64,000 nt of DNA from assembly GCA_017654855.1 (NCBI GenBank), contig CM030336.1, positions 4,774,001-4,838,000 of the forward strand. Reading direction: 5' to 3'. Of the stretch, positions 3,001-58,036 are shown in pieces. The DNA is from Podospora anserina (lineage: Eukaryota). Every line of letters begins with the position of its first letter. Positions within the stretch are counted from its first letter, which is position 1. The notes below the pieces were generated by a model. It did not search any database and was not told the DNA's origin. It saw only the letters and a list, made by a program, of their open reading frames with translations. The translations under genes and the position numbers were made by a program.

Positions 3001-3214
3001 CATTTTCCCTTCTCCTCTGCGTTCATTGTCGATGGGGCTGTTTGATCATCGCTGGTATGTTGTTTGGGTTAGAAGATACTTGATCATCGACCTCTGTGGT
3101 TGACGTCTGTGGATCGATAGGTTCTTTAGTCGTCTTCTCACTTGGGGATTTATCAGTGGGTGATACTGGCTGCCGCGCGACGGGATGGCGGGCTACGGCT
3201 TGCAAAGAGGCCAT
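1..3214 (-). pseudogene. Fungal AAA+ ATPase (long N-terminal region + single AAA domain), disrupted; 3' end runs off the left edge
   Basis: Walker A FLLHGGPGVGKT, then TAECIAEYTNRPLLSLTC, Walker B VMLIDEADIYLERR, FLRCIEYY..LFLTTNRVGHFDDAFISRIH and WNGRE.RN/AFQTAVALA across several exons. Lesions: 1-nt deletion near 630 (TGG GGC CT GTC ATG breaks WGAVML), in-frame TAG at 2703-2705 just before QPKISYSVEYLD, and frame breaks near 3030 and 1770. Candidate ATG at 3214. Confidence 0.85.
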
Positions 3215-3535
3215 CGAGAAGAATTGACGGTCACACGTGGAGATCAACAAAGATTCAACTGGGGAACGAGAGTGAAGGACAGGACCGGGAGGCACGCGGG
3301 GTAGGAAAGAATACCCTCGCAATTACCCCTCACTGATGACACGGTCACACACAGGTCGGCTTTATGATTGTGCCTTTCGGATGCATTTTTAAGCGGCTCA
3401 AGAGTGACAACTCAGGCAGCACCATGCCCGTGGCTCTTTTGGATTTTTAGATTCCCACTGCTGCCCCACACCCTTCATCCCCATGTCAACAACTGGAAGG
3501 TCCATGGAGCAATAGCATAGGTGTTTTCTTGGACC

Positions 3536-13356: not shown

Positions 13357-14300
13357 ATATGACCACGGTCAATGTCCCGGTGCCTCCAGCCGGGCGTATC
13401 TCCCAAGAAAGCCAGCTGGAATATCTCAAGAAGGAACAGGCCTGTTTCCTGCAAGCTATGACAGTCCACGGTATTTGCGGAAGGGACCATGGAAGGTGTC
13501 TGGTTGTTGTGATCCTCAGTGTCCCACAAGGGTTGGAGCAGGAGAACCACAGAGTTCTTGGAGCAGGTTATCAGGGAGACAGCAAGGCTTCACATGATCT
13601 GGATCTGGCCAATTGTCCGTGTAGGCATACCAGAGGATACGATTACAAAAACGAAATTCATTTGAGAGCACGCTTCACCTACTTCCTGAACGGCCACCTT
13701 CTCACCCAGCGCATGTTTCTCCTGATGTCGCCTCCTTCCTATCCTCCCTACGAGCTTTCCCAGCTGAATTGCCAGTGACAATGACCTCATACAGTGTTGA
13801 TCTAGAGCCCTGGACGAAAGTGGAGGTCCCATTACTTCCCCAGGCAGCCAATGAGGGATACTGCAAAGAGCCCAGGCCAGAGAAAGAGGGCAAGTGGAGA
13901 ACTCCTTAAACTGCGGCTGCCGTCAATTGTTAGCACATGACGGCCCGGGCCATGCTCCTTCCCTCAGATGCCCGTCCCGTGATGCCTCGAATATCAGATG
14001 GCCACTCCTTGATGGTATTTTCATGCTTGAAGATGCCGCCAATGCCATGGATGGCCGGATATTCGGAAGCGATGAGAACCAGGAAGACGGTCCCGTGGCT
14101 TTGTCCTTGCCAAAGACAGTATCGAACGGAGCCAAAAAGTCGGAAACCACTCGCCAACCTTGGATCACGAGAACGTCAAGAAGCAGAATTTTCATCATCA
14201 CTCCGTCTTCGATCGATTTCGTGCCCGTGGCCTCTACTCTCCATTTTCGGGGCCCACCAGCGTGCTTGTGATCTCCCAAGAGACAGGTATATCTTCCACA
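13357..14300 (+). other. Possible degraded gene remnant of unknown family
   Basis: Chain of short protein-like plus-strand ORF fragments in changing frames starting at ATG MTTVNVPVPP; no recognisable motif. Confidence 0.25.
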
Positions 14301-14424
14301 CTTGTCCTCCGACTTGCCATCTCCTCCCTCTCCCAAACCACCGACAACCGATGACAATCTTGCAGCTACACGTCAACTTCAATCTTGCAACTCAACACTG
14401 AGAACTCGAACCACTTCCATCATC

Positions 14425-15026
14425 ATGCAGCTCAACAAGCTCACCGTCACCCTTGTTGGCCTCTTCACAGCCGCCATTCAGGCCGCCCCCGCCGTCCCCG
14501 AGACTGGGGTTGCCCCTCCCTCTGCCGACTCCGGCTACACCGAAGTCAGCGACGGTGTCTGGTACAAAAACAAGACTGACTTCTTCAAGGGCGACAGCTT
14601 CTGCAACTCTGACTACGAATACTGGAACAAAACTTCGGAGAATTCCCCTTTAGTCCTTGACTGCTGGCACATGTACAACAACATCAAGGAACCAGGCAAT
14701 TGGTATGTCCTATTGCATCCCCATCTTCTGATTGATAGATAGATTGATTGATTGATTGACGCTGACGCTCGACGATGTGATGCAGGGTCGGCGCCGGGGG
14801 CCACAAAAAGCTCATCAGCAAGGACTCGTGTGCGTATACGACGTGGGCCGAACACAACGGTCTATTATACACGCTCGGCAATGAGGACCTCCGCCTCACG
14901 ATCAAGAAGGCGATTCAGAAGTTTGGCACTCTGTTCCCCGGCGAGAAGGACTACAAGATCGGGGCTTATGGCAAGCTGCGTTGCCAGGCGCTTGTGATCA
15001 ATTGGGAGATTTCTCAGAACTCGTGA
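14425..15026 (+). CDS. Secreted Ecp2-effector-like (Hce2) protein
   Basis: Signal peptide MQLNKLTVTLVGLFTAAIQA; C..Y.NKTSENSPLVLDCWHMYNNI..GNW; intron approx. 14703-14785 containing (GATT)n; exon 2 ..LISKDSCAY..LGNEDLRLTIKKAIQKF..KIGAYGKLRC..INWEISQNS*. Confidence 0.8.
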
Positions 15027-16935: not shown

Positions 16936-19850
16936 TGTACACTTCCCGGCTGGCTGATCATGAAGAGGAATTGATACCGCCGAACCTCTCTCTGGAAGAG
17001 GCATATGGTGGATTAGCCACCTTGTCCAGCCACTTGATTGCGGTCCTCAACAAAAAGTCCTCAGCAGGTCTCGCAAAACTTCAGGAAATCGCTGAAGACG
17101 TCAAATATTTGAGTTATGCTCACCGGAACCAATTGCACGCGGATCTGGAAAAGTTACAGACCAGCACCGGCATTGTTCAATTTGACCTTGATATCATGGT
17201 CATTGGACCAGAGTCAAAAGCGAAGAAATCGCCAGAAGTCTGTCTGCGCACAGCCTTTACTTGCAAGAGCCCTATTTCATGCTTGAGCAGTATCCCTACC
17301 GCAATCCGCAGCACCTCGAAATTGAACACTATGAGCAACAGCCCTCTCTAGATACGGAGCAATGTCTTGATCATCGCAGTCAAGATGAAGATGTCGATAT
17401 CTCGGAGCCGTCGCATCTGGAGTTGATCCTAGCTGCAATTGACAACCTACCGGAGAATGGCAGGCTCGGTCCGGCACAGGTAGACTCGCGCATACAAACG
17501 CCACTACTAGAGTATATCCGCCCGGGTTACACCACTCCTAGTCAATGTAACTGCCCGAGTGGTAGGCATCAAAGCAAGGCAGTAGACTTCATCATCGGCA
17601 GGGAAAACGGTGACCACACCAAGTTCACATCTTTGTGGAAGGAAACCGAGGAAGGCCGGTCTTCAATGCAGGTTCCGGGTACCATGTTACCTTTGTTGCA
17701 CTTTACTCATTATGAATGCAGATTCCAACACGTCATTACTGGCTCCAAGAGCCTGTCTCCAGATGATGTTCGGGGTGGCCTACTGGCAGGGGAGATGGGC
17801 TTGGGGAAACATTCAGCATGATTTCTGCCGTCGTCACGGCCATGTCATGCGCCGAGAGCTATGCAAGGTCAACCCAAACTAGATCAGGGGTTACACCAAC
17901 CCTCTCCACACTTGTGATAGTGCCATTTTCGCGTAAGCCGCATTGGAACCAGCACCAAGAATCAGGAAAACTAACAGCAGCAACCAGTTCTTCTGGAAGG
18001 ATGGGTTGAAGAGATAGAAAAGTGAGTTTCATCTGATTGCGCCACCGAAGTCTTTTGCAGTGGCCAGTATGACAGCTACTCGCTGGGCCTAAAGAATCGG
18101 CCGTTTCGTTGTCAGCCCGTTCTGTAGGCCCAACGAGCATGCGCATTTGCGCTCCGGGGATGTCTCTTCCTTCATCTTCTTCATCTTTTCATCATCTATT
18201 AGTGTTACCGGCCGTGATAGTCGCTCACAGACCCCTTAGGCATGTCAAACCTGGCGTCATCACCCACTACAAGTATCATGGGCCCGACAGGCGGCTGGAT
18301 CCGTCCAATTTGCCATCAGTGGTAATATCGACATACGGAACAGTGAGCACAGAGACCACACGCGCCAAGAGTATTTTCAGACAGATACACTGGTATCGGA
18401 TAGTTCTGGACGAAGGTAAGTCCTGGACACGGCCTCGTGCCTAAGCTTCCGCAAACTCCACAACTAACCCTCAGAAACCAGCACACATCATACGTAACTC
18501 GTCCACCAAGCAGTTCCGGGCCATGAACAGCCTATCATCCCATATTCGATGGTGCATGACCGGCGCCCCGGTGCAGAATGGCGTTGGCGATATCGGCTCA
18601 CTAGTTCGGTTTCTTCGTGTCCCAGTAATGGGAGACGTCGCCAACTTCCGGAAGCACATCCTAGGCAAGACCAAACTCACCTCTCTCGAGTCATCAAGCC
18701 ATGACTTTGACAACCTGCGCCTTCTCCTATCCTCTATCTGCCTGAGACGAAACACCTCTGTCCTACAACTGCCAGGGGTCAAATACGAATGCCGACGGCC
18801 GCACTTCAGTGCGGTGGAAAAGGAGGCACATACCAAGCTCATTCTCGCTTGCCAGAAAGCCATTGATCGGTCTGATCTCGGCAACCCAAACAAAGTTGTT
18901 GCGTTTCAGAAAGGACTTGGTTTGGAGTCTTCAAACGGAGTACTTGAATCACTTCTCCGGCTCCGTCTTTTCTGCGATCGAGGGCTAGCTTTGGGACCGT
19001 CCAAGGGGGGACTCCCCTCGACACTCGATGAGGCTCTCAGCCTTGTGCAGCAGAAGGGCATCTCGAGATGCGGGGACTGCGGTAACGACAAAATGGCCGC
19101 CGGGATGGAAGGTACCCATCTGACCAATTGCCACGCGTTGGTATGTTCTGAATGCCCCATCAAATTTCACGATGAGCTGCTTGAGAGTCGCTCGTCCAGT
19201 GGCGTAGGTGGGAACCTGTCCATTCTGTGGAGAATATGACAATGGCGAGAACCTCCTACCGAACCAGCAATCGGTCAGCTCAAATAGCATAGGGGTCGAC
19301 GTCCCGTGCCCGTCAAAACTCGAGGCATTGATGGAAGATCTTTGCAAGATGGCGCGGCACGAGAAGAGGTATGTCCCGACCCTGTTACAACGCTACCAAA
19401 TCAACCGCTAATCCGCCCAGTATCGTATTTTCTTTCTGGATGAAATCTCTTGACCTTGTCGAGAACCTCCTCAAGAAACACGATATTGCCTTTCGACGCG
19501 TCGACGGCTCGAGATCAAAGAACGACAGGAGGGCTTCGCTGCACGACTTTCGAACGAAAGATGTGCCGGTGCTCTTGATGACATTCGGAACGGGATCGAT
19601 GGGGTATGAACACGACCTGTCACCTTGAAACCTTGAACACTTGCTGTTAGCTAACACTCATTCAGGCTCAACGACCTGAATGTGGCGCGCCGCGTCCACA
19701 TCCTCGAACCGCAATGGAACCCGTCTGTCGAGAACCAAGCCATCGGTCGCGTGTCGCGGTTCGGCCAGACGAGAGAGGTGACGGTGATTCGATATGTGAT
19801 GAAGAAGAGTATCGAAGAGGTGAGTGATTTCAAGCCGTTGTTTGAGTGCA
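16935..19850 (+). pseudogene. SNF2-family (RAD5/HLTF-like, RING-type insert) helicase, disrupted and probably 5'-truncated
   Basis: RGGLLAGEMGLGK (D to G in LADEMG, immediately followed by a frameshift), STLVIVP, VVISTYGTV, WYRIVLDE, RWCMTGAPVQN, CGDC..CHALVCSEC..CPFC, SKLEAL, IVFSFW, RVDGS, VHILEPQWNPSVENQAIGRVSRFGQ. Frameshifts near 17230, 17805 and 19210. Confidence 0.88.
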
Positions 19851-23821: not shown

Positions 23822-26800
23822 TTACTTCCAGTAAACATCCATCCAAAACCAGTTCTTCGGATTAACAGCCGCCGCGCCCGTCCTAGCCCTCCCTCTCTCC
23901 TTCTGTCTCGGACCAGTGACATGCTGCTGCGCAAGTCCCTCACTGTTACCCACAACCGCTCCATACTTCTTCACTCTAGCAGGCTTGGGTTGAGTTGGTG
24001 GACGGGGCGTCATCTCATGTCTCTGCTCGTCGATGTTTTCCCACTCTCCGTCAGTTTTCTGCGCTGCCTTCCCCTTTCCTTTGTCCTTGTTTTTGTTCTT
24101 GACAGTAACTGCTTTCTTCGCTCTTGAACGAGTGAACAAGCCCCTCTTCTTCTTAGGTTTGGGTGGCTCGTCAAACTCAGCTTCGTTGTATTCAGGGATG
24201 GTCTGTTGCCATTGTTGAGGTGTCTGCTGCTGGCGAGCATTAGGTCCAACAATGGCCCCAACCGCGGAAGTGCGTCTGTTTGGACCTTGCATGAGTTGCG
24301 GGCTGCCAGACTTGACACGACCCACACGGGCTATTTGGTCGTCCTGGGTGTTCATCTTGCCCATCTCGATGTCGTCGGTAGACTGGGTCTTTTTCTTGGA
24401 AAGAGAGAACAGTCTGGCCCAGAAGCCCTTCCTTTTCTCCGGTTGCTGAGCGTCGATATCAGGTGAACCACCCGAGACGGCCTCGCGCGGGCTGGCTCGT
24501 GGTGACTGTTTTTGTAGTTGAGACTTCTTGCCAAATAACCGGGCCCAGAATCCTCGCTTTTTAGGTGCTTCGTCAACCTTGTCGGCGGGTAGCCGTTCGG
24601 CTGCCATCATCTGAGGCGATTGGAAATTCTGTGGGCCACGCTCGACTGTTGCCATGTTGCCGAAGTTGGCGCTTTGTCGTGTAGGCTCCATGGCGCGGGC
24701 CTGGCGAGTGTTCTGCATTTCGTATGACTCTTGAGGGATCGGACTGGGGGCTTCAACATCGGTGACCACAGTCTTGTCGCGTCGGCCGAACCATGCGAGG
24801 AAGCCCTTCTTCTTCGGCGCAGGTTCCTCAACGTTGGTGTCGTTGGCAAAGTTCCACTCGTTGGCCGGCTGAGGCGCTAGGCTAGGTGTCCGTGAAGTGT
24901 TGTTTTGCACAACATTCAGTCCGCGAGAACTTGTCGCGTTGGGAGGCGTTGGTTGAGAAACTGGCCGAGATTGCTCCGTCTGCTTGACAATCGGAGAGTT
25001 GCCGCTGCTCCCGGGCGTTTCTGTGGTACTCTGCTTTTGCTTGCCAAATCCAAAGAGACCCTTAAATGTCCACCCAGATGATTTGCCGGTGGAGGTATGA
25101 TACTGCTCCTCGAGTGATTCCATGCCAAATCCAAGCGTTGCTGTAGCCATGAGAGGAAGCAGCCACAAGTACCTTTGGGTGTTGCCGCCGTGCTTAGCAG
25201 TAACATTGGCTTTTGCCGCGTCCTGAGTGTTGTTATCCGAGACACTGTTCAGCTGCATTGGTTCGTTGACCTGATATGCGTCCTGACTGTTGGATCTTAG
25301 CCCTGGGTTGGCACTTCGAGTCTGTTGCTCCGTTGGGTGCGTTTGCTTGGGAAAGAGACTCATTGGGCGGCTTGGAGGTGGAGGTGGAGGGGGAGGTTGA
25401 TATTGTTGTTGCTCGACAACTCTCTCCCCCTGCACGATAATGGCGGGTGATGATTTATAACTATGATACTCTGGCTGCTGTTGGTCGTAGCCATCCTGCG
25501 CAATCTGCTCTGGTTGGATATAGGTGTAATCTTCGTATGGGCTTGCTGGTTCATCTTGCATGTACTCTTCTATGGATGGTCGATCATGAGGAACTTGGTA
25601 ATCCACCGATTCCACTCGCACCGGAGACACTGATGTTTGGCGGGCAGAATAGTCTTTGGAAACACGTTGTGGTGACTGAGGTGGCATTTGGTGGGAGACT
25701 GGAGAACGCTCAACCGGGGCGTATGTGTCGAAATTTCTGGCATCCGCATTTATGATCTCAAACTCAGGTTCCGAGAGTCGTCGATCGTCGCCAATGGAAT
25801 CAGGCTCCGACAAGTAAGTGTTAATATCAGCTGCGGGGGACTGAGCGCTTTCCATCGGGCTGGGGGGTGCGGCAAACCCACGGGTGCTTTGTTGAACGGG
25901 AAACTTTGGTGGTCTAGGCCAAGCAGCAGGGTATATGTGGTCAACCTCCGCAGGGGTTTGGGGCGCAGTCATTGCGTTCTCACCAGCCCAGCCCGTATGG
26001 TCGTAAGCATCATCTTTTTCCTCGATGTCCTGTTCCTGGTGATAGTGCTCGGTGGAAGTGAATCGACTATCGACCAGTGGGCTTTGCTGAAAGGTAAGAG
26101 GTGAGAGCATCTCGTGATCGTGAGGGTCATCAGGCGGCGTCACGGGTCTGTGTTGGCTTGCATCCCATCCAGGCACTGGGCTCGAGACATACTCGACATC
26201 TTGTTGCATATCTTCGGGTGGCGGGGTGAGCGGTCTTGGAGATAGTAGCTGCGAGTCACGTCCCCAGTTAGAAGCAACTGCAGGGCTCTTCAGATGGTTG
26301 TTGAAGGATGGAGAGAGTGCATTGGATCCGTAGGTGTCATCATCTGGGGTGATTGGGCGGGGGAACTGCTCGTCTGTGTGATGGGGCTCTCCAGAGGTCT
26401 CCTCGGGATTGTAAGGTTCTTCATCCAAGGCCTGATGAATCTCTTGTGCCACGGGATAGACCACCTCTTCATCAGAATAAACGATAATTGTCTCGCTCTC
26501 ATCCTCTCGGGTCTCAGGTTCCAGCTGTGGTTGGTTTAGCGGTGGGGATGGGGGAGGCGAGAGATCGTCAATTGGCCCTTGATAAGACGGCGTGGGCTCG
26601 GGGTGGACGGGCAGAACGTCATCCTCTGGTTGAGAATGAAGTTCTTCATGATATTCGGGCTGCTCGTCAGTGTATGGAGCTTCCTCTTCTGTCAGATCAC
26701 CTCCCCAGCCTTGTCCAGAATACAGGTCTTGCCCTGGCTCCTCGTAGCTTTGTTCCACTGGGACTTGGCCATGTTCCTGATTTGGCTCTTGGACCATATT

Positions 26801-29800
26801 CTGATACTCCTCTTGGGAATGTGGAGCAATTGGCTCATCGAAATCCTCTTGGGCTAGTTCGTCGTATGTCGCATCTTGCGGTTGCTCTTCGAGGTCCTCC
26901 TGGATATATTCATCTGTCGCTTCGTTGTATATTTGGTCTTCGACGTACTGTTCCGATACCTGCTCGACTGCTGGTTCATTGTCTGGTTCTTCGTAGGTAT
27001 GTTCCGGATATACTTCTGCAGTGGCTTGCTCGTTTGCTTGGACAATCTCTTCCTCGGAAGCTGGCTCCTCGTATGCTGGTTTGTGGTGAGATGGCTCATC
27101 GTATATCGGCTCACCGTCTTCCTCTTGAGATGCTGGCTCCTCGTAAACCTCCGCGGAAGAATTATCATAGACAGGTTCGTCAGCAACCTCTTCAATGGGC
27201 TGTGAAATATGCTCCTCATATGCCTCCCCATCAGGCTGCTCGTATACCTCCTCACTTGGCTCCTCATAGAAGTCCTGCGCCGGCTCCTCATTCTCCTGCT
27301 GAATCGGCCCATCGTAGGCTTCCTCGGCCAGCTCCTCATACACATCCTGAGCCGGCTCTTCAAATAGATCTTGAACAGGTTCCTCATTCAACTCCCCGTA
27401 CACCTCTGGCCCCTGTTCCTCATATACCTCCTGAATTGGCTCTCCAAACTCCTCTTGAAGAGGCTTATCATACGCATCTTCTGCAGCAGGCTCCTCTGTA
27501 ACAGGCTCCTCTGCAGCAGGCTGCTCATACACCTCTTCAGCAACGGGTTCTTCGTACACCTCTTCAACAACCGGCTCTTCGTACAGCTCCTCCACTGACT
27601 CTTCGTAAACCTCCTCAACTGGTTCTTCATACGCCTCTTCAACAAGGGGTTCTTCATACACCTCCTCAGCCGGTTCTTCATACACCTCCTCAGCCATTTC
27701 TTCATACACCTCCTCAGCCGGTTCTTCGTACACCTCCTCAGCCGGTTCCTCGTAAAACTCGTCCACTGGTTCTTCGTAAAACTCCTCAGCTGGCTCCTCA
27801 TAGAACTCCGCAGCTGGCTCTTCAAATGCTTCTTCGACTGGCTCCTCATCTTGAAAGCCCTCGTCGAATACCGCATCGTCCTCTTGCACGAAGTCAACGT
27901 CTTCCGCAAATACTTCGCCTTCCGCATCGCCAAACTCCTCTTCCATGGGCTGTTCGGGTTCAAGCGCTGGTTCTGGTTCCAGTTCTGGCTCATAGTCACC
28001 AATCTCCTCCTCTACATACACTTCAGGCTCTGGCTCCGGTTCATATACCGGCTCTGGTTCAGACTCATAAACTTCTTCAGGTTCAGGCTCTGCTTCGAAG
28101 GTACGGTCAAACTCAGCTTCAAATGCTGGTTCAGGCTCGGGTTCATATGCTGGTTCGGACTCGAGCTCATACGCTGGTTCTGGCTCGGGCTCATATGCTG
28201 GTTCAGGCTCGGGCTCATAGGCTGGCTCAGGCTCCGGCTCGTAGGCGGACTCCGGGTCGTATGAGGGCTCTTCCAATGCTGGTTCGTCCGCGGGCTCTGG
28301 CCTGTAGCCGTCTTCAAAACCGGTATCCATGGGCTCCAAGGTGCGGTCGCCTTCGTCATACATTTCGTCCTGAGTGGCATCCTCGTACATGGCTTCTTCT
28401 GGTTCACCAAACTCTTCAACTGGGCCCTGGTCATCCGGATACTCCCCGTCCATGGGAGCTGGGTCTTCGTCAAACCCCTCTTCCATGATCTGCTCCTCCT
28501 CATATACCTCCTCCTCCACTGGAGCCTCCTCAAACAGAGGTTCCTCCTCAAATGGAGGCTCTTCCTCAAATAGAGGCTCCTCCTCAAATGGAGGTTCCTC
28601 CTCAAATGGGGCTTCCTCTCCGAATGGGGCCTCCTCTTCCTCCTCTCCAAACTCCATGTCTTCGCCCCGATCACCCTCTTCGCCAAACTCATCACCCATC
28701 TCCTCAGCATATTCGTCGCCTTCTCCAAGCTCTTCGCCCACATCCTCGCCCATCTCTTCGTCGAACTCATCACCTGTGGAATTGTTAGCAAAGTTGTCTG
28801 TCGTCATGTGTGAAATGATGGTGAGCTCGCCTTCAGGATAGTCTTGGGCGAATTCCTCCTCGGCAAGCTCCTCCTCGAACGGTTCGCCGGCCTCTTCATC
28901 GTCGAAACCGCGCTCGCCATCCTCGGCGAAGTCTTCTTCCAGCAAACCATCCTCAGCATATTCACCCTCAGCAGCCTCGCCATCTGCGAATCCATCCCCG
29001 AATTCCTCACTATTGGCGAGCTCACCATCTTCCTGGTACTCACCTTCTGCAAACTCTTGTTCCCCTTCCGCACCCTCGCCATCGAAGTCCTCGTCCAGAC
29101 CCCGCTCACCGTCTTCAAAGTCGCCCTCCTCACCAAACTCACCCTCCTCACCAAACTCTCCTTCTTCGCCAAATTCGTCGCCTTCGGCAAACTCTGCACC
29201 TTCACCTTCAAATTCTCCCTCCTCAACATACTCTCCCTCGCCGTTCATAAACTCGTCATCATCTAAACCACGCTCACCATCCTCAAACTCACCGTCCATT
29301 TCTGGATCAAATTCGCCCTCGCCCTCTTCACCTTCCTCATATTCACCCTCCTCACCTTCCACGTACCCACCTTCTTCTTCACCTTCAGCATACTCACCTT
29401 CCTCCTCACCCTCCATGTACCCACCCTCCTCGGCAAACTCACCTTCTTCCATCTCCTCATCCAAGCCGGGCTCGCCATCCTCTTCATCATAGCCCTCACC
29501 TTGCTCCTCCCCTTCAAAGCCTTCCTCTTCAGCGTACTCTTCCTCGCCTTCGAGGTACTCTTCTTCAGAGAGCTCCTCCTCTTCACCCTCCTCAACATAC
29601 TCCTCCTCGTCCTCTGCAATCTCGTCCTCATCAAGCTCCCGCTCACCATCTTCCTCGTCAAGGAATTCTCCCTCTTCAGCTTCACCCTCACCATCCTCAA
29701 GATACTCTGGTTCTTCCAACGACTCACCCTCAACATACACCTCCTCTCCCTCCCCATACACCTCCTCTCCATCCTCTCCCTCCTCATACTCCTCCTCATC

Positions 29801-32800
29801 CTCATCCTCATCCCAGCCAAGGTCGTGAGTCATACCAGGCGGACCATACATCGCCGCAGCAGGAGTATCAAGAACAGCATACATATTCTTCTCAACAGCA
29901 AACTTTTCCTCGTCGTCATCGTAGACGGTGAAGAGGTCGTCGTCATCTTCTTCGTCGAGCAACTCAGAGACAAGCTCGTCCTCGTTGAAGTCGTCTTCGA
30001 ACTCAGCAGCTTCGTCTTGACCGGAGAGGTATTCACCTTCTTGGTCGTCTTTAAGCAGGTCTTGTCCTTCCTCGGCTTCGAGGAAGATATCGCGTTCGCC
30101 ATCTTCGCATTGATATTCTTCTTGGCCTTCAAAGTCCTCTTCCTGGTCGTTGAATTCTGGTTGTGCGTCAAGTTCCTCCCGACCTTCAACGTCCTCTTGG
30201 CCATCAAATTCCGGTTGGTCGTCATAATCTTGCTGACGGTCGAAGTCTTCTTGGTCCTCCTCAAGATCCGACCCACGCTCGCCATCGTCGTCGAAATGCT
30301 GATCGTATTTGGGCTCTTCCTGGTCTTGGTACTCATCTTGGTTGTCAAAGTCCTCTTGCTGATCGAGGTCCTCATTCCCATCAAGTTCACCCTGGTCGCC
30401 AAAGTGTTCTTGATCTTCAAGATATTCCTGCTCATCTTCAATATCCAGGGAGCGCTCGCCGTCGCCGTCGAGATCCTCTTGGCCTTCGAAGTCTTCTTGC
30501 TCATCAAAGTTGTCTTGGCTTTCGTGCTCCTCCTCGTCTTGACCCTCAAGCTCTTCCTGGCCGTCGAAGTCTTGTTGCTCTTCGAGGTCGGCTTCGCACT
30601 CAAAGACCTCCTCAGCCTCGGGATCTAGCTCTCCATCTCCTTCTGGCTCTGCACATTTCTGATTTTGAAGCTCCTCAAAGGTGATGTGGTCGTCAGCGGT
30701 AGGGATCTCGAGAACACCCAAGTCACCAGAGATGGTGTTGAGAAAGTCGGCGTCAAAGGCTTCCTCAAGTTCACGGAGCTCTTCTTCGGTCATTCGAGGT
30801 TCTTCAGGCTGAGCTTCGTCTTCGAGAGCAACTTCTTCACAGACTTCTTCCTCGAAGCCCTCTTCGTCGACCTGTTCGTCGCCAAGGGGCTCTTCGTCAA
30901 GCAGCTCTTTGTCAATCGGCTCTTCATCAAGGGGTTCTTGGTCAGTCGGCTCCTCGTCAAGGGGTTCTTCTTGAAGGGGCTCCTCGTCAAAAGCCTCGTC
31001 GTCAATAGCGTGCTCGTCGTAGTAGTACTCATCCTCCCTGTCCTCAAGTGGCTGATCATCAACAGGGATGCCATCGCCCTCAAAGACCTCATCATCAAGC
31101 GAGCGTTGACCGTCGACAAATTCGTCATTTTGTGGGGTGTACTCGCCATCTTCCAAAGGAGCCTCTTCATCGTACTGGGCGTTGTCTTCTCCGGCATATT
31201 CGCCGTCATCGACGGGTGCTTCCTCCTGATACTGAGCGTCATCCTCAGTGTACTCGCCGTCCTCAACAGGTTCCACTTCGTCAAACTGGTTGTCGCCGTT
31301 TTGAGACGGATACTCTTCCTCTTCGTAGGCGGGGTCTTCTTCGTATTCTTGGCCTTCAACAGGGATTTCTTCGTCGTAATGCTCCGAGTCGTCGTGATCA
31401 ACGAAACCTTCACCGTCAGCTTCTTCGACGAAATCCTCAGGTAGAGAGCGCTCCCCGTCGATTAAGTCCTCTTCCTCCGGCTGATACTCATTTTCCTGGA
31501 GGAGATCTTCGTCGTATGGCGGAGCATCGTTGTCGAGGGCCTCGGTGTTGAGTTCTTCCTCGCCATTGGTGAACTGCTGCTGGTCATATTCGGGGTATTC
31601 ATCATCTTCCGGAGCAGGCTCCTCGTCGTATTGATCGTCAGCAGTAAACTCGGCATCTTCGTCGAAGTATTCCTGGTCGCTGGGTTGGTACTCTTCATTG
31701 CAAATCTCGTCTTCAGCGGGAGGTACTTCAGATGCGTAGCCATCTTCGTCGACGAAATTATCGTTGTCCGGGGGATTGTCTTGGGCATCTTCATCGTAGA
31801 GGGCTTCATCAACAGGTGCCTCTTCATCAGTGAAATACTGGGTTTCAGAGGAATAGTCGACTTCTTGGCCGGCAACAGCCTCCTCAACGATATGCTCGTC
31901 TTCCAATGCTTCTTCCTTCTCGTATTGAACCTGACCGTCATCAACGGACTGAGAAGCGTCCTCGTCGAGATATTCACCGTCAGACTGAACTCGATCCTCT
32001 GGGAACTCGTCACGAATGGGGCTCTCAACAGGAGTCAAATCCTGGGGCGTGAACCCTCCGTCGACAGAACTGTTTTCGAATGAGCGATCAGCCTCAATTG
32101 CTTCATCGGCATCTTCCAGAGGATAATCATCATCTTCCACAGCAAGGGCCTCCTCCTCTCCATATTGGACTTGGTTTTCGTCGGCGGGGCAGTCTTCCGC
32201 TGGAAGATCCTCTTCTTGGTCTTCAGGTGTCATCTCGGCGCCATCTTCATCCACAACTTGCTCGTCGTCCGAGGCAGCAGGGGTGAATTCATCAGCGTCT
32301 TGCCCCAGTAATCCCTCCTTGCCGTCAGAGGCGTTCTCATATGATGTCTCCGCCTCCTCGCGAAACTCGTCATCAAACGATTCAGCATGTGGAGAACGAG
32401 CCTCGTCATCTGAGGCGCCGTCTTCAGTTTCGAGGGTATCTTCTGGAAAAGCGTCGTCTGAGGTAGGGGTAGCCTGACTTTGCGCGTAGTCGTCTTCAGC
32501 GCAGTCGTCTTCTGAAAGCTCGGCATGGGCAAGGTTTTCGGGGGCGTTGGTTTCTGGCAGGTTTACATCCTCTTGATGGACGGCTTCCTCCTCCACAGTC
32601 TCATCAACCAGGTCGGGAGACCGATCCACCTCTACGTTCGCCTCCTCATCCTCAGCGACGTATTCGCTTTCCTGTTGGTCCTCGCGAGAGAAATCCTCCT
32701 CAGGGGAATCCTGCTCGTAAAGCCCATCATCATTGACCTCGTCCTGGCCAGGCTGAAAATCCTCGTGGTCGGTCCCCATGGGGCGCTCTCCATTTTCATC

Positions 32801-34876
32801 AGAGGACTCGGGATCTTTCAGGCTGTATTCCGCCTCCTCAAAGTTGTCAGAGATCACCTCATCCTGGTTGATGTCTTGGAAGCTTCCATCCTCGGAAGCT
32901 TGGTCATACTGCTCAGAGTCGGAGATGTGCTCCTGGGCGAGGTCATCGTCGGCGGCGACATGTTCTTGGTGCGCGGAAAGGGTCTCGGCATCGGCGGGCT
33001 CCTGGGTTTCTTCATCTTCCGGGATGCTCTGAGAATCGACGGCGTCGTCGTCGTCCTGAACCAAGTCCTCTGGTTCCGTTGAAGGAAGAGGGGAGTCCAA
33101 CGCCTGGTCGACATCGGCCCGAGTCTCTTCGTCATTTGATGCATCTTCAATGATGGGGGTTTGAGGCTGGGAGATGACATCGTCGTCGACTGCGATATCC
33201 TCGTCTTCATCGACCTCGCCGTGATCAAACTCTTCCTGTTCAACCTCCTCGTCATGATCGCCGTCTTGCTCAACTTGCTCGTGCTGGTCGTCCTGCTGAG
33301 CATCGTCTTGGTCCACCTCCTCGTCGTCCTGAACAGGCTCCTCATGACCAACCTGCTCCTGATCAATCTCTTCATCCAGCTCTGACTCAACACCCTCGCC
33401 ATCAGAAACCTGTTCTTGGCCATCATGCTCTTCATTTTCGTCAAGGTTATCCTCAACGGGCATTTCTTGGTCCAAACCAGCCTCTTCATCTTGCAAGGAT
33501 GCCGATTCATCACCAGCGACGGATTGATCACCAGTGGAGACTTCAAGGCCAACATCTCCTAGGTCAAGCTCATCAGACTCAAGACCTTGCTCTTCCGCAT
33601 CATCCGCTCCTGAGGTAATATCGTCTGACTGGGGATCGTCATTCTCTTCATCGGCAGCATGTTCCTGCGGTCCAGAAACGACAAACTCGAACCGTGGTTG
33701 ACCTTCGAGACTCTCTGGCTCGAAATCAGGCTCATCTTCCAATGGCGGGTTTTCTTGGTAGTAGTCGTCAAGTGTCTGCCCATCTTCTTCGTCTTCGCCG
33801 TACGGGATAGTCGGTGGAGGGTTGTAGTATGAGCCGAGATCAGCTGTTGTTTGATCATCGTATGGGTTGGAAAGATGTCGCTCTTGATACAGTGGGTGGT
33901 CCTCTGGAATGCCATCATCGCCGTAGTCCCCGATCGTGAAACCAGGTGAGTCTAGTGGTTCGTCACCTTCGACCTCTAGTTGTGGGGATGCCGGGGGTTG
34001 GTCTTCTCCTGGAGGCTCATCGACTGGCGGTTGCGGTGATGGTGATGGCGAGTCTGATGGTGTAGACAGGATTGATGGCTCTGTCTGTTCCGGCTCCGAT
34101 GGAACAGCAACGGGGACTGGAACAACCTCATTCTCTTTTGGTACCTCGACGGTGAAATCCTTCTTGATGCATGGATTTTCCCGTCTCCGCCTCCCATTCT
34201 TCCTCGGCCCGTAGCAGTCCTCCTTTTTGTGATCTTTCCCAACCCTATCCCGGTGCCACTCCAAATTCCAATGCCATGGCCCTCCCTCAGCAACCTTCCT
34301 CCCATTCCACGTGCCAAGATAAATGCTAAACGGGCTAATAACCCAATTCTCCTCGCTGAACGGAGCATTACACTTCTTGCAGGCCGTGTCCTCCGCATAA
34401 TCCGCCACCTTTGGCGCCAAAAACCCATTAAAAGCCCCATCATCATCAAAAGTATTAATGGCCTCACACTCCCCACACCTCCACGCCTCGGGAGTCTGAT
34501 CAAACTCTCCCACAACCCTCTTGTCGCTGGTGGCAATCTCCCGTGACCCAGAAGAGTTCACAATCATGCAGTTTGAGCAGTCGACAAAGGCATGATCACA
34601 CTCCCCGCACTCCTCGAGCGGCTTGAACAAACTGCTCGATGCCCAGCACCTGCAGCATTTCCGCCGCCCGGGCACGCCCTTCCTCTCTTCTTCTGTAAAC
34701 TCCTCTGGTGATTTGGCGATAGGAAGTGAAAAGTCCCCTCTCACAAAAGAGATCCCCGGTGGCTTTTCCACCAAAACATTGTCGTGGTGGCCACAAGGCC
34801 AGACATACTCGATGAGGTTCGGAGATCGTCGTGTGGGTCCCATCTTGTCCTTCTGTGTAAGTAATTCCACGCTCAA
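23822..34876 (-). CDS. Giant (about 3670 aa) hyper-acidic, largely disordered protein with N-terminal Cys/Zn-ribbon cluster and basic C-terminal tail
   Basis: Uninterrupted 11-kb ORF; first ATG at 34843 (MGPTRR). CxxC-type pairs in the first 200 aa; about 2800 aa E/D-rich with [14 protein letters not shown] and EEGEFG repeats; probable in-frame 57-nt intron at 28774-28830. Confidence 0.9.
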
Positions 34877-37453: not shown

Positions 37454-37540
37454 AGCCCGACGTGGGGGTCGAACCCACAACCTTGAGATTTCGGAGTACT
37501 CCATAAGAGTCTCACGCTCTACCGATTGAGCTAGCCGGGC
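37454..37540 (-). tRNA. tRNA-Lys(CTT) with 14-nt intron
   Basis: GCCCGGC/GTCGGGC acceptor stem, TAGCTCAATCGG A-box, TGAGA-CT-CTT-A[intron TGGAGTACTCCGAA]A-TCTCA anticodon arm, GGTTCGA T-loop, downstream T-run. Confidence 0.96.
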
Positions 37541-51399: not shown

Positions 51400-52603
51400 A
51401 GTAAGTAAGTTAAGTTAAGTAAAGCCTATTTTTGGTTAAGCCAAATTAAGCCTTCCTATTAGTTTAACTTGTAAATTCGGTAAGCTCTACTATTTTTAAC
51501 CTTTTATAAAAAGGCGTAATACCGTAGGTATAATAGTAAAGGTATTACTATTAACCCTACTGTTAAATGTACTAGCATTAATTATCCAGCTTTACCTAAA
51601 ATAAGAATTTTAATTTTTAATAAGTTAAATTATAGAAATTGTTTTTAGAGTAATGGAATTGTTAAAGGAATTTAAAAATAAAAGTTTAAAATTTCATTTT
51701 AATTATCAACAAATTATTTTAACGTACATTATAAGCGAGTGAGCCATATAAGCGAGTGAGCTACTTTTTCGACGCGGCGCGACCCTCCACCTACAATATA
51801 CCACTCGACAACAACCAACTATGCCTGCCACCTAATACGAAGCTAGGGTAAACTTAGCCCTTAAAGCTCTTCAAAATGACGAAAATCTAAGTGTACGGGC
51901 CGCTGCTAAGATCTTCAATATTGATCGTACAACTCTTTCGCGGCGGCGCGCTGGCAAGCTGCACGGCGCGACACTACGCCTAATTCGAAGAAGCTTACTC
52001 AATTAGAAGAGGATACTATTATTTAATAGATTATTAAGCTATATACGCGAGCTTTTTTTACTAAGATTGCGTAGTGTAAAAAATACAGTTAACCAACTAC
52101 TATACGTACGCGACGCGCCTCCTATTAGTAAGCTCTAAGCATATAACTTTGTTAAATGCTAACTATAGCTCTATACGCGTTTTACGCGTAAATATAACTA
52201 TTAAAGAGCTAAGTGCGAGGATCTAAAGGTTATAGCCGAGTAGTTTACGCTCGTACGGCACACTAAAGCTAAATAGAGTATTATACATAACGATATCTAT
52301 GACTTCCACGAAATTAACTTTATAATAAATATTTATTTTCATAGGTATAATAATTACGACTTCGGACGGCCTTAGTAAAGTAAAACTAGCTTAGTTTAAT
52401 AATTACGAATAAATAACGGTAATTTAAAAAGTTAATACTTTCGGTTAACCTATCTTTCTTTTTATTATTTTAGCCGTATAATATTACTTTATTAATCAGT
52501 ATGCCGAATATAACTTACCGTTTATGTAGCGTATTATAATTACCGATAATAATTTATCTATTAAAATAATAGGCTTAAATGAGTTAAATATTTCGATTAT
52601 TAT

Positions 52604-53341
52604 TAGTTTGGAGTACGGCCACAGGCCTAAGAGTATAAGTAAGCAAGCGGGGCTCTCAGAGGCCTCAGGGGTTCAGTGGGGCTATGTATATAAGCGGTCT
52701 GCTTCGGACATTCTATTTTAGACAAGACATCGACTTTTATTTTCTTCGTATTTCGTGCCTTGCACGCGTGCAGGCAATCTGTCACGGACCTGACATAAGT
52801 GGGGAGCGCGGGGCGCGACCGTCCAACCACTGGAACGGAAAAGTGGGGAAGTCGGATTATCACTAGTGCCAAGGGTGATAATCACGATTATCACCAGCCT
52901 TCGATGAACGACGAGTGATAATCGACATTATCACTGGTGATAATGGTGATAAACCGGTCTATATATACGGAGGAACTGGCTGGTGTAGATAGACAGTTCC
53001 GCAGTATGCAATTCAGCTTGTATTCACAGTATCTAGTGTTTACATTGAGACATCTTGTTGTGCACTGTTTAGCTGCACCGAACCAGGATTATTCAGAAGT
53101 TACCTTCAACCAGTATCCCTTTCAGAGGTTCTGGATAGGGGTTCGTCACACAATCCTGGCCCTCTGATCAGGCCAATCCGGTGCTTATTATGTGGCCTGC
53201 GAGCCCATAGTGTCTTTTCTTTGTCCTACGTGAAGTGCGGCCTGCGAGCGAGCCACTGTCACGCAGGTGTATTCATTTTGAGACCTGTTGAGGGTACATT
53301 TGTGGTGTTGTGGTTGTTTTGTGTGTTTTCTCGCCATTTCA
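52604..53341. mobile_element. Probable solo LTR (about 360 bp net) inserted in the Fot1-like transposase
   Basis: The transposase frame is split exactly here. Ends are TA (probably RIPed TG)..CCATTTCA with duplicated TTAT; TATA-like TATATAAG inside; more GC-balanced than the host element. Confidence 0.6.
52780..53150 (+). mobile_element. Intact solo LTR, 371 bp, with perfect 5-bp TSD
   Basis: TGTCACGGACC..GGTTCGTCACA imperfect inverted ends, TSD CAATC at 52775-52779 and 53151-53155, internal TATA box; CpA/TpG retained. Confidence 0.92.
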
Positions 53342-54010
53342 TTATATATCGTTCCGTATAAAAGGTAAATACCGGTTATTAATCCTCCACGGTTACGAGA
53401 GCTATCATTCGACCAAATTCGAGTATTATTATTAGTAAAATAATATTATTATACTCTATATACCTTTATATTCCTTCTACTACCTTTAGCTACTTAATAT
53501 CGGCTACTTGGGATTACTAAAGTAAGCGTACGGTCGCTAAATCGAGGACTTAATATATATATATATTAACTATATTAGTAAGCTCGAATTTCTTTATACC
53601 TTCCGAAAAGCTTTTTTTACTTTTTTACTTTTATAACAAAGAAAAATATATGGGATAGCTTTATAGATACTAACTTTACGCCGTACGATTTTAATAAAGT
53701 ATTTTTTAAACTAAATGTAAAGCTTTATACGCTAATACCCCCGCCCTTACGGCCTAATACTTTATGACCTTAGGTATTTTAAATACTATAAAACCCCTAA
53801 AAAACTATTTTATAGTTAGTATTTATTAAAATCTATTTTACTAATTATTAAAATAATTTCCTGACTTTAATATTAATTATAGTAGACTAGCTTACTAAAA
53901 ATATAACGGCTATAATATAGTCAATAACTATTTCCTAACTTCCTTAATAATTGGCTAAGGGCGTCCTGCGCCCCGTATACGGCGCGGCTTAATGTTGGGT
54001 TAACTGTAAC

Positions 54011-54174
54011 ATAGTTTCGTAATATATAATTTAAATTATAATAATTAGTATTTAAACTATTATAATTAAGATAAGCTATTTATTATATACTATCTAGCTA
54101 TACCGAACTAGGATTATTTAGAATTGCTTTTAATTGGTATCCCTTTTAGAGGTTTTGGATACAGGTTTATTACA
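54011..54174 (+). mobile_element. RIPed 3' half of an LTR of the same family as 52780-53150
   Basis: Aligns by eye to about 52992-53150 with mostly C>T/G>A changes (AACTAGGATTATT vs AACCAGGATTATT; TATCCCTTTTAGAGGTTTTGGATA vs TATCCCTTTCAGAGGTTCTGGATA); ends in TTACA. Confidence 0.85.
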
Positions 54175-57949: not shown

Positions 57950-58036
57950 GCCCGGCTAGCTCAATCGGTAGAGCGTGAGACTCTTATGGAGTACTCCGAA
58001 ATCTCAAGGTTGTGGGTTCGACCCCCACGTCGGGCT
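57950..58036 (+). tRNA. tRNA-Lys(CTT) with 14-nt intron
   Basis: Identical to the copy at 37454-37540 including the intron; T-run terminator at about 58058. Confidence 0.96.

What the first reader, a model, noticed from the sequence alone, without database searches (positions are those of the whole stretch)
23822..34876. Giant polarised polyanion: Zn-ribbon head, about 2800-aa acidic spacer, basic membrane-seeking tail
Seen: an 11-kb open frame in a region full of pseudogenes. The head has [30 protein letters not shown] (RanBP2/zinc-ribbon-like). The body is overwhelmingly Glu/Asp with zoned repeats. The tail is Gln/Pro- then Lys/Arg-rich and ends [10 protein letters not shown]. No signal peptide is evident. 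Known: very long acidic disordered tethers exist in these fungi (Leashin, the Woronin-body tether), but I cannot see its conserved ends here. Inference: an undescribed molecular tether or ruler, a cation (Ca2+) sponge, or an osmotic/gel-forming protein, perhaps in the ascus or at the septum.
Basis: partly seen in the sequence, partly recalled or inferred. Interest (0 to 1): 0.75.

Follow-up and report, generated by a model that had tools for sequence, protein, structure and literature searches.

The report
Giant acidic orphan protein, Sordariales fungi
This is a real gene for a 3,673-residue fungal protein with a zinc-binding head, a huge negatively charged floppy middle and a basic tail; it belongs to an unstudied family that is not the known Woronin-body tether Leashin, and its job is still unknown.

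Summary
On the minus strand, 34843..23822 is one open frame of 3,673 aa. It is 32% Glu+Asp with net charge -1015. Simulated sequence of the same make-up never exceeded 262 open codons. The gene is colinear with a 3,498-aa Triangularia setosa protein.

Every relative found is a "hypothetical protein" of Sordariales. The head found only 25 relatives among 1.84 billion representatives, none of Leashin size.

The head folds confidently (pLDDT 79.9). It has no Pfam family above cut-off and no PDB fold match.

Five short relatives of 667-876 aa keep the head and the C-terminal ...NWF tip. Their linker is basic and Ser/Pro-rich. One tree branch (95/100) separates them from the acidic forms; the direction of change is unresolved.

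"Region full of pseudogenes" is not supported, because a tested frame break is a canonical intron.

Best reading (0.35): a membrane-attached polyanionic tether or spacer that works like Leashin but is unrelated to it. Function, localisation and expression are untested. The head-tip binding test could not be run.

The parts
23822..34843 (-). Whole coding sequence, 3,673 aa plus TAA stop, apparently one exon
   Evidence: Colinear from first Met to last Lys with the T. setosa protein P0002: 2,053 of 3,241 aligned residues are identical. Simulated open runs reach 262 codons at most.
34154..34843 (-). Head, residues 1-230: compact, beta-rich, Cys/His-rich domain (probably 3-4 zinc sites)
   Evidence: C17, C63, C64, C66, C79, C82, H84, C89, C92, C123, C126, C155, C158, H197 and C210 are kept in 21-29 of the rows that cover them. 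AlphaFold2 gives mean pLDDT 79.9 and pTM 0.79. No Pfam family reaches its cut-off. Foldseek against the PDB gives 0 matches at E<=0.001. Zinc binding is inferred, not shown.
33824..33940 (-). Two short conserved islands, FTIGDY (302-307) and DLGSYY (335-340)
   Evidence: Present in Podosporaceae and Chaetomiaceae forms and absent from the 5 short forms.
29924..33643 (-). Acidic zone I, residues about 401-1640: extra acidic sequence seen only in the window protein and T. setosa
   Evidence: The TPAA island lies at residue 1658 (window) and 1532 (T. setosa), but at 399-470 in four Chaetomiaceae-type forms. Identity to T. setosa is 23-72% here, with many indels.
29810..29881 (-). Conserved island [24 protein letters not shown] (1655-1678), ending in a Trp followed by an acidic run
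   Evidence: Found in 6 of 9 long forms by pattern; sequences.
26444..29773 (-). Acidic zone II, residues 1691-2800: zoned repeats (GE-rich with [24 protein letters not shown])
   Evidence: Tandem repeat rows at 27480-29809. Windows of 100 residues are 27-58% D+E. Mean hydropathy of residues 401-2800, which include this zone, is 0.345 against a disorder boundary of 0.557.
28904..31456 (-). Six DGER(G/S/E)(L/F) punctuation motifs (residues 1130, 1462, 1733, 1856, 1912, 1976), spanning both acidic zones
   Evidence: Similar motifs recur in all long relatives and in 0 of 5 short forms.
25184..26443 (-). Near-neutral Pro/Ser/Gln-rich linker, residues 2801-3220
25100..25171 (-). Conserved hydrophobic segment [24 protein letters not shown] (3225-3248)
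   Evidence: It is the most hydrophobic 19-residue window of the protein, Kyte-Doolittle 1.26. It is conserved in 7 long forms. This is marginal for a membrane span.
24113..24814 (-). Four basic-aromatic motifs: [14 protein letters not shown] (3344), [13 protein letters not shown] (3428), [16 protein letters not shown] (3470), [17 protein letters not shown] (3561). The conserved DIEMG...[12 protein letters not shown] block (3491-3517) lies among them
   Evidence: Between 1 and 6 GF(W/F)xRLFG-type motifs occur in each of 9 long forms and none in the 5 short forms.
23825..23980 (-). C-terminal module (3622-3673) ending in the tip [13 protein letters not shown] (3661-3673)
   Evidence: N3664 and W3665 are invariant in 14 of 14 full-length rows, long and short. 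The motif R.RT.A..A..P.NWF is shared by both forms.

Best explanation
The frame is a real, apparently intron-less gene for a cytosolic giant protein. It belongs to an uncharacterised family found so far only in Sordariales.

Two elements are common to all full-length members:
- a head of about 230 aa, a multi-zinc, beta-rich domain with no known fold;
- a short basic/aromatic C-terminal tip (R-x-R-T...P-x-N-W-F).

The linker between them evolves freely. In the Podosporaceae and Chaetomiaceae branch it is a polyanion. That branch also has short conserved islands, a hydrophobic segment and several basic-aromatic GF(W/F)ARLFG motifs near the C-terminus.

I propose a polar tether or entropic spacer. 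The C-terminal 450 aa sit on the cytosolic face of an acidic-lipid membrane. The polyanion is repelled from that membrane and from itself, so it extends. The head holds or samples a partner tens to more than 100 nm away.

This is the way Leashin is thought to work, but the protein is not a Leashin homologue.

Shown: the gene, the family, the architecture, the conserved pieces, and the lack of similarity to anything known.
Inferred: disorder, zinc binding, membrane binding, tethering, and the distance.
For: Real gene:
- 3,684 open codons against at most 262 in 300 simulations.
- Colinear with a 3,498-aa orthologue. Identity is 93% and 89% over residues 1-100 and 101-200, and 83% at the tail end.

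Family:
- 5, 3, 25 and 29 hits. All 15 named organisms have Sordariales names; 7 species and 1 family were checked.

Folded head, unfolded rest:
- pLDDT 79.9 and pTM 0.79 for the head.
- The body lies far on the disordered side of the charge-hydropathy boundary, 0.345 against 0.557.

Both ends kept, linker free:
- The 5 short forms share the head (44-51% identity) and the NW(F/W) tip.
- Their net charge is +8 to +37, against -130 to -1015 in the 9 long forms.

Membrane-type elements only in long forms:
- A conserved hydrophobic segment and 1-6 basic-aromatic motifs.
- Clusters of basic and hydrophobic residues bind acidic lipids non-specifically in other proteins (PMC6960411, abstract seen in the listing).

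Precedents:
- Leashin has a binding N-terminus, a poorly conserved acidic repetitive linker and an anchoring C-terminus (PMC2690989, passages).
- A. fumigatus Lah is anchored by a membrane segment near its C-terminus (PMC5345055, passages).

Size estimate:
- Contour length about 860-1,220 nm. End-to-end distance about 60-160 nm for scaling exponents 0.6-0.7 (a rough polymer estimate with recalled constants).
Against: - No localisation, expression or binding data exist for any member.
- The hydrophobic segment scores only 1.26 on Kyte-Doolittle, below the usual threshold of about 1.6 for a membrane span (threshold recalled).
- A helical hydrophobic-moment scan did not single out the basic-aromatic motifs.
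- The tail is only mildly basic, +29 over 453 aa.
- The same basic clusters (PKPKKKRG, and [11 protein letters not shown] in the head) look like nuclear localisation signals.
- The short forms lack every putative membrane element, so membrane attachment is not a property of the whole family.
- GC3 of 0.53 shows no strong codon bias.
- The partner of the head is unknown.
Confidence: 0.35

Rival explanations
1. Nuclear or chromatin polyanion. The zinc head binds nucleic acid or a chromatin protein, the basic clusters act as nuclear import signals, and the acidic body acts as a DNA mimic, an autoinhibitor or a sink for histones and other basic proteins.
For: NLS-like clusters occur at 214-225 (G217, R218 and P224 invariant) and at 3561-3577. 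Zinc ribbons are common in nucleic-acid machinery, and the best local Foldseek hits are such proteins, though none is significant. Many eukaryotic DNA/RNA-binding proteins carry strongly negative D/E-repeat disordered regions, some autoinhibitory (PMC10250230, abstract seen in the listing). There is a sub-threshold Pfam match to Ima1_N, the zinc-finger end of an inner-nuclear-membrane protein: 19.5 bits against a cut-off of 28.9, in 7 of 30 members.
Against: All structural and family matches are below significance. A protein of about 400 kDa with -1015 charge would be unusual nuclear cargo. The conserved hydrophobic segment and the GFWARLFG motifs are not explained.
Confidence: 0.2
2. Head-to-tip self-association. 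The C-terminal aromatic tip docks on the head, within one molecule (closed loop) or between molecules (chains or a polyelectrolyte network or gel).
For: Head and tip are the only elements shared by the short and long forms. They co-occur in 14 of 14 full-length rows, window included, with N3664 and W3665 invariant. Everything between them, even the sign of the charge, changes.
Against: Co-occurrence is equally expected if each end has its own partner. The direct tests could not be run. The complex prediction was never accepted (last answer).
Confidence: 0.15
3. The polyanion is a tolerated runaway low-complexity expansion with no function of its own; the function lies in the head and tip alone.
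For: Linker length ranges from about 360 to 3,360 aa and its charge changes sign across the family. There are many indels even against the closest full-length relative: 432 window residues face gaps and the relative has 257 extra. The DNA repeats are degenerate, 67-87% matches.
Against: Acidity is kept in all 9 long forms from two families. Conserved islands (FTIGDY, DLGSYY, the TPAA island, DGERGL) are embedded in it. Zone II is 54-81% identical to T. setosa over residues 1701-2300. The frame stays open over 11 kb in several species.
Confidence: 0.15
4. Cation (Ca2+/Mg2+/polyamine) sponge or osmotic, gel-forming protein.
For: Charge density of -0.40 per residue over 2,400 aa. Any such polymer will condense counter-ions.
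Against: No signal peptide, and a cysteine/zinc head, point to the cytosol, where free Ca2+ is very low (textbook knowledge). The conserved ends and islands are not needed for a buffer. No EF-hand or calsequestrin-type family was found.
Confidence: 0.1
5. It is a diverged Leashin (Lah) family member, i.e. a Woronin-body tether by descent.
For: The general plan is the same (PMC2690989). There is a hydrophobic segment near the C-terminus, as in Lah (PMC5345055).
Against: Leashins are 5,936-10,821 aa, are reported in all sequenced Pezizomycotina, and have N- and C-termini conserved between Aspergillus, Chaetomium and Neurospora (PMC2690989). Here the head finds only 25 proteins in 1.84 billion, the longest 2,703 aa, with no Aspergillus or Neurospora name. 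Searches restricted to 2,020-6,428 aa found only this family. Chaetomiaceae members are 1,623-2,703 aa. The body is not Leu- or Ser-rich (L 4.5, S 3.5%).
Confidence: 0.03

Closest known systems
Leashin / Lah (N. crassa LAH-1 and LAH-2, Aspergillus Lah), the Woronin-body tether
   Same: A giant protein with a binding N-terminus. It has a poorly conserved, highly acidic, repetitive and presumably extended middle, and an anchoring C-terminus with a hydrophobic segment (PMC2690989 and PMC5345055, passages).
   Different: No detectable sequence relation at either end. It is a third to two-thirds of the length. The head is Cys/His-rich. Composition is E/D/P/G/Y/F rather than P/E/L/S. Distribution is limited to part of Sordariales rather than all Pezizomycotina. 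Short non-acidic family members exist. No Leashin sequence could be fetched for a direct comparison.
Ist2 of budding yeast, an ER-plasma-membrane tether
   Same: It connects two sites through a long intrinsically disordered region (PMC12617493, abstract seen in the listing). That it binds the plasma membrane through a basic C-terminal lipid-binding stretch is recalled, not from a call.
   Different: Ist2 is anchored by a TMEM16-type membrane domain and its linker is a few hundred residues (recalled). Here there is a soluble zinc head and a polyanion of about 2,500 residues. No sequence relation was seen.
D/E-repeat disordered regions of DNA/RNA-binding proteins
   Same: Long runs of Asp/Glu attached to a nucleic-acid-type binding module, with a possible electrostatic autoinhibition or mimicry role (PMC10250230, abstract seen in the listing).
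   Different: Those tracts are tens of residues long; this one is thousands and is patterned with aromatic residues and repeats. Nucleic-acid binding by the head is not shown.
Zinc-ribbon families: Ima1_N (PF09779), zf-Sec23_Sec24 (PF04810), and the ESM Atlas lead Zn_ribbon_double (PF26652)
   Same: CxxC...CxxC knuckles at C123/C126 and C155/C158. There are sub-threshold Pfam matches. The Atlas neighbour cluster of small Ascomycota proteins scores 0.87 with 168 of 256 shared features.
   Different: No family reaches its cut-off. The whole 230-aa head has no PDB fold match. PF26652 did not appear in the Pfam copy on hand, so that lead is untested.
Titin PEVK region
   Same: A Pro/Glu-rich extensible segment, the analogy Ng et al. 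drew for Leashin (PMC2690989).
   Different: PEVK is roughly charge-balanced (recalled), whereas this body has 39 K/R in 2,400 residues. The parallel between Lah and titin is itself called speculative (PMC5745230, passages).

Membership tests
Leashin / Lah | N- and C-terminal sequences conserved across Pezizomycotina (Aspergillus, Chaetomium, Neurospora), with homologues in all sequenced Pezizomycotina (PMC2690989) | tested here: not met
   Head: 25 hits in 1.84 billion representatives, the longest 2,703 aa. Named hits are Sordariales only, none Aspergillus or Neurospora. Tail: 3 hits, all in-family, among proteins of 2,020-6,428 aa. Caveat: no Leashin sequence could be fetched for a direct comparison.
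Leashin / Lah | Size 5,936-10,821 aa (PMC2690989) | tested here: not met
   3,673 aa here; full-length relatives are 1,623-3,498 aa, and short forms 667-876 aa.
Leashin / Lah | Poorly conserved, highly acidic, repetitive central region | tested here: met
   Net -959 over residues 401-2800. 18 tandem-repeat rows. 23-81% identity to the closest full-length relative, with many indels.
Leashin / Lah | Central region enriched in Pro, Glu, Leu, Ser (PMC2690989) | tested here: not met
   The body is E 27.8, D 13.8, P 7.2, G 6.9, L 4.5, S 3.5%.
Leashin / Lah | N-terminal ~344 aa bind the Woronin-body protein WSC | not testable with these tools
   This needs localisation or binding experiments.
Leashin / Lah | Membrane-spanning segment about 220 aa from the C-terminus that is required for septal targeting (PMC5345055) | tested here: inconclusive
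   A conserved hydrophobic segment lies 447 aa from the C-terminus, but its Kyte-Doolittle score is 1.26, which is marginal. No sequence similarity was found.
   Not among the families listed at E<=1 or at E<=10 for 30 family members.
Ima1_N (PF09779) | Score at or above the Pfam gathering cut-off of 28.9 bits | tested here: not met
   19.5-19.6 bits, covering only residues 116-157; 7 of 30 members match at E<=10.
Zn_ribbon_double (PF26652) | Match to the Pfam model | not testable with these tools
   This is only an ESM Atlas lead, score 0.87 with 168 shared features, which the tool text calls a lead only. The family was not among the Pfam results for any of the 30 members. I cannot tell whether the copy on hand holds it.

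The most novel reading that the evidence does not exclude
This is an independent, second invention of a giant polyanionic tether in filamentous fungi, within one order. A small zinc-head protein with a basic Ser/Pro linker had that linker replaced by an acidic chain of 1,300-3,400 residues (net charge from about +30 to as low as -1015). It also gained membrane-binding elements. The conserved aromatic tip may plug into the zinc head, so that molecules close into loops or link head-to-tail into a charged cytoplasmic network.
Probability: 0.25. Interest if true: 0.75.

Novelty: new variant of a known kind. Interest (0 to 1): 0.55.

Why it matters
If the tether reading is right, fungi built giant acidic tethers at least twice from unrelated parts. 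That would argue that a long polyanion is a general physical answer to holding things at a set distance in a streaming cytoplasm.

The family also offers a natural experiment. The same two ends are joined by a short basic linker in some species and by a polyanion of 1,300 to 3,400 residues in others. Linker length and charge can therefore be tested by swapping natural alleles in Podospora-type fungi, which I recall to be genetically tractable.

The head is a confidently predicted multi-zinc domain with no solved relative, so it is a structural target in its own right.

If instead the spacer is a neutral expansion, it is a striking case of how far low-complexity growth can be tolerated in an expressed gene.

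Tried and rejected
Tools that did not run or gave nothing
- Cluster look-up for names of unnamed relatives: switched off.
- Complex prediction of head (1-235) with tip (3610-3673): never accepted. The queue was full, and the tool was declared unavailable. No result of any kind.
No result.
- ESM Atlas on the tail: no usable hit.
- PDB sequence searches: head profile best E 0.59; tail 0 hits; residues 1340-1700 0 hits.
- Helical hydrophobic-moment scan: did not pick out the basic-aromatic motifs.
- Internal duplication of the head: none; best E 0.44 over 5 residues.
- NCBIfam scan: failed on a frame error of mine and was not repeated, because that library covers bacteria and archaea.

Literature
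- Searches found nothing on this family. One search term was rejected.
- Han et al. 2014 on the Leashin middle region (PMC4135730) is not held.
- These searches cover open-access text only, so 'undescribed' means not found there.

Window features that stayed unexplained
- AT-rich block at 52-56 kb: 0 of 9 frames hit Pfam, and no repeats were found.

Ideas considered and dropped
- Secreted gel or ascospore appendage: no signal peptide, and a zinc/cysteine head.
- Di-lysine or PTS1 C-terminal signals: the tip does not fit these patterns as I recall them.
- W-acidic kinesin-light-chain motif for [10 protein letters not shown]: only a resemblance from memory, not tested.

The genome collection holds only bacteria and archaea, so no orthologous DNA was examined.

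Full report
1. What is there

On the minus strand a single frame is open from 34876 down to 23822 (3,684 codons). The first ATG is at 34843, giving 3,673 aa that end [13 protein letters not shown]. The ATG has A at -3 and G at +4, and an in-frame TAG lies just upstream.

The coding frame has 1 stop, while the other five frames have 40-352. In 300 first-order Markov simulations of the same 11,055 nt, the longest open run averaged 149 codons and never exceeded 262. The frame is therefore not a by-product of T-poor composition.

The protein is E 21.1% and D 11.3%, with net charge -1015.

2. Anatomy

- Residues 1-230 form a Cys/His-rich head.
- Residues 231-400 are a Pro-rich, already acidic stretch with two conserved islands, FTIGDY (302) and DLGSYY (335).
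- Residues 401-2800 are the polyanion: E 27.8, D 13.8, P 7.2, G 6.9, Y+F 8.5%, only 39 K/R, net -959. Mean hydropathy is 0.345 against a charge-hydropathy boundary of 0.557, so disorder is expected.
- The polyanion is zoned. It contains D/E/Q-rich low complexity, EEPL-type units, Q/G-E-F units, GE-rich units with Tyr or Phe, [14 protein letters not shown] and EEPAEEVY repeats. At DNA level there are 18 tandem-repeat rows, periods 15-75 nt, 67-87% matches.
- Six DGER(G/S/E)(L/F) motifs punctuate it. A conserved island [24 protein letters not shown] sits at 1655-1678.
- Residues 2801-3220 are near-neutral and P/S/Q-rich.
- At 3225-3248 lies the most hydrophobic segment of the protein, [24 protein letters not shown]. 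Its Kyte-Doolittle score over 19 residues is 1.26, which is marginal for a membrane span.
- The last 430 residues are mildly basic (3221-3673 has net +29). They carry four basic-aromatic motifs ([60 protein letters not shown]), a conserved DIEMG...[12 protein letters not shown] block and the aromatic tip.

3. Relatives

- The head (1-250) searched among proteins of 2,020-6,428 aa found 5 proteins of 202 candidates. They were Triangularia setosa (3,498 aa, 87% identical), Thermothelomyces heterothallicus (2,194), Trichocladium antarcticum (2,341) and two unnamed (2,703 and 2,290).
- The tail (3190-3673) found 3 of 4,855 candidates, all from the same set.
- A full HMMER pass of the head over 1.84 billion representatives found 25 proteins at E<=0.001, 20 of them at E<=1e-30. 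One of the weakest, P0027, is a repetitive zinc-knuckle protein and probably spurious.
- Among shorter proteins, 29 of 689 candidates matched.
- Every name given by a source is 'hypothetical' or 'uncharacterized', except a JGI auto-label 'collagen type V/XI...' on 6 rows. I take that label as an artefact of Gly/Glu-rich low complexity.
- The 15 named organisms all bear Sordariales names. I checked 7 species and 1 family in the taxonomy: Podosporaceae, Chaetomiaceae, Naviculisporaceae, 'Lasiosphaeriaceae' and incertae sedis. The rest rest on my own knowledge.
- No Neurospora, Sordaria or Aspergillus protein appeared.
- Many hits of 300-800 aa end inside the acidic region and are probably truncated gene models or contig ends.
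- The window protein is colinear with the T. setosa protein from first to last residue: 2,053 of 3,241 aligned residues are identical. Identity is 93% and 89% over residues 1-100 and 101-200, 88% for 301-400, 23-81% in the body, and 83% at the end. Indels fall in the low-complexity zones. This supports one uninterrupted gene.

4. The head

In an alignment of 30 heads, these residues are kept in nearly all rows that cover them: C17, C63, C64, C66, C79, C82, H84, C89, C92, C123, C126, C155, C158, H197 and C210. That is enough for three or four zinc sites, which is an inference.

AlphaFold2 with this alignment gives one compact, mainly beta domain, with mean pLDDT 79.9 and pTM 0.79; four of the five models score 76-80.

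- Foldseek against the PDB returns 0 matches at E<=0.001. The best is E 0.057 with TM 0.14. Only 35-50-residue zinc-ribbon pieces (archaeal ribosomal proteins, rubredoxin-like modules) superpose.
- Pfam gives nothing above cut-off. Ima1_N scores 19.5 bits against 28.9. zf-Sec23_Sec24 appears in 10 of 30 members with best E 0.013. There is no zf-RanBP hit.
- A profile search of PDB sequences gives a best E of 0.59.
- The two halves of the head are not duplicates of each other.
- The ESM Atlas places it nearest to clusters of small Ascomycota proteins labelled Zn_ribbon_double (PF26652), at 0.87 with 168 shared features. By the tool's own text this is a lead only. I could not test it.

5. The short forms

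Five relatives of 667-876 aa have the same head (44-51% identity). They include Bombardia bombarda (on a 3.19-Mb contig) and a Naviculisporaceae species. They end ...R-R-x-T-[LV]-x-x-A-[FL]-K-x-K-N-W-[FW], which aligns with ...[15 protein letters not shown] of the window protein. N3664 and W3665 are invariant in 14 of 14 full-length rows.

Between head and tip they have about 360-570 residues that are Ser/Pro-rich and basic. Whole-protein net charge is +8 to +37, against -130 to -1015 in the nine long forms. They contain none of the following: FTIGDY, DLGSYY, DGERG, the hydrophobic segment, or the GF(W/F)ARLFG motifs.

I built a maximum-likelihood tree of 27 heads. Fragments under about 60% of the head, and P0027, were left out. 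One branch (95/100) separates 18 acidic or truncated Podosporaceae and Chaetomiaceae rows from 7 short or Rhypophila rows. The two distant outgroup rows have very long branches, so the direction of change is not resolved.

The TPAA island lies at residue 399-470 in four Chaetomiaceae-type proteins but at 1658 and 1532 in the window protein and T. setosa. About 1,200 residues of acidic sequence are therefore specific to the latter pair.

6. Is it Leashin?

According to passages of Ng et al. 2009 (PMC2690989), Leashins have these properties:
- They are 5,936-10,821 aa.
- They occur in all sequenced Pezizomycotina, Chaetomium included.
- Their N- and C-termini are conserved between Aspergillus, Chaetomium and Neurospora.
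- Their centre is acidic and rich in P, E, L and S.
- They bind WSC through residues 1-344.

Leonhardt et al. 2017 (PMC5345055, passages) add a membrane segment about 220 aa from the C-terminus.

Here both ends find only their own small family. The size is outside the Leashin range. Chaetomiaceae members are 1,623-2,703 aa. The body is poor in Leu and Ser. Only 'acidic, repetitive, poorly conserved centre' is met, and 'hydrophobic segment near the C-terminus' is inconclusive.

I could not fetch a Leashin sequence, so no direct alignment was made. I rate homology at 0.03. The functional analogy remains the best available model.

7. Mechanism

Shown:
- a conserved folded head;
- a conserved tip;
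- a linker that is free to change in length and in the sign of its charge;
- in the long forms, a set of conserved short islands and basic-aromatic motifs.

Inferred:
- The tail binds the cytosolic face of an acidic-lipid membrane. Basic-hydrophobic sites do this in other proteins (PMC6960411, abstract seen in the listing).
- The polyanion is extended by self-repulsion. Contour length is about 0.9-1.2 micrometre, and end-to-end distance about 60-160 nm for exponents 0.6-0.7 (rough).
- The head binds a partner.

I give this 0.35.

Evidence against:
- the weak hydrophobicity of the segment;
- the modest basicity of the tail;
- NLS-like clusters that fit a nuclear role equally well;
- the absence of all membrane-type elements in the short forms;
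- no data on expression, with GC3 0.53 showing no strong codon bias.

The rivals are a nuclear polyanion (0.2), head-tip self-association (0.15), neutral expansion (0.15), a cation sponge or gel (0.1) and Leashin by descent (0.03).

8. Surroundings

The neighbours are ordinary fungal genes: CFEM, amidohydrolase, GH2, P450, fungal rhodopsin domain, GH43, SNF2, MFS, ADH and a FAD-binding protein.

The in-frame stop in the SNF2 gene lies in a canonical intron whose removal restores the DEAH box.

The giant gene shows no RIP signature (TpA/ApT 0.26-0.60). The block at 52-56 kb does (1.38, with a second index of 0.63).

9. Verdict

This is a real, conserved, lineage-restricted giant polyanion with a new zinc head. 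It is unrelated to Leashin by every test available here, and its function is unknown. I found no published description in five full-text searches, which cover open-access papers and bioRxiv only.

Interest is 0.55. It is a striking protein and offers a clean natural experiment on linker charge and length, but no function is in hand.

Noticed in passing
proteins P0016 (133 aa) and P0020 (108 aa), matching window 34103..34819 (-): These two database proteins are identical to the window's head except for 32 of 32 and 29 of 29 substitutions. All substitutions are of the coding-strand C-to-T type (P>L/F, A>V, H>Y, R>W, S>L/F, T>I/M). They look like a C-to-T-converted copy of this same gene, by bisulfite-type conversion or RIP.
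   Followed up: partly
window 18416-18481 (+): A canonical 66-nt intron (GTAAGT...CTAAC...CAG) in an SNF2-family helicase gene contains an in-frame TAA. Splicing restores the DEAH box.
   Followed up: yes
window 52001-56000: This AT-rich block (GC 0.36-0.41) has RIP-like dinucleotide indices: TpA/ApT 1.38 and (CpA+TpG)/(ApC+GpT) 0.63. 0 of 9 frames hit Pfam, and no direct or inverted repeats were found.
   Followed up: partly
window 37454-37540 (-) and 57950-58036 (+): There are two tRNA-Ile(UAU) genes of 87-88 nt with the same Rfam score (56.3 bits). They are probably intron-bearing copies about 20 kb apart.
   Followed up: no
window 14272-14742 (+): The end of this small frame matches the start of the Hce2 domain (putative necrosis-inducing effector family) at 25.1 bits against a cut-off of 25.
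   Followed up: no
window 26488-32083, + strand: Several long frames of 205-453 aa lie antisense to the giant gene. They are most simply by-products of its low-complexity, stop-poor composition. They were not searched.
   Followed up: no
window 1581-2702 (-) and 4211-4930 (+): These frames carry DUF7025 and DUF7708, domains of unknown function.
   Followed up: no
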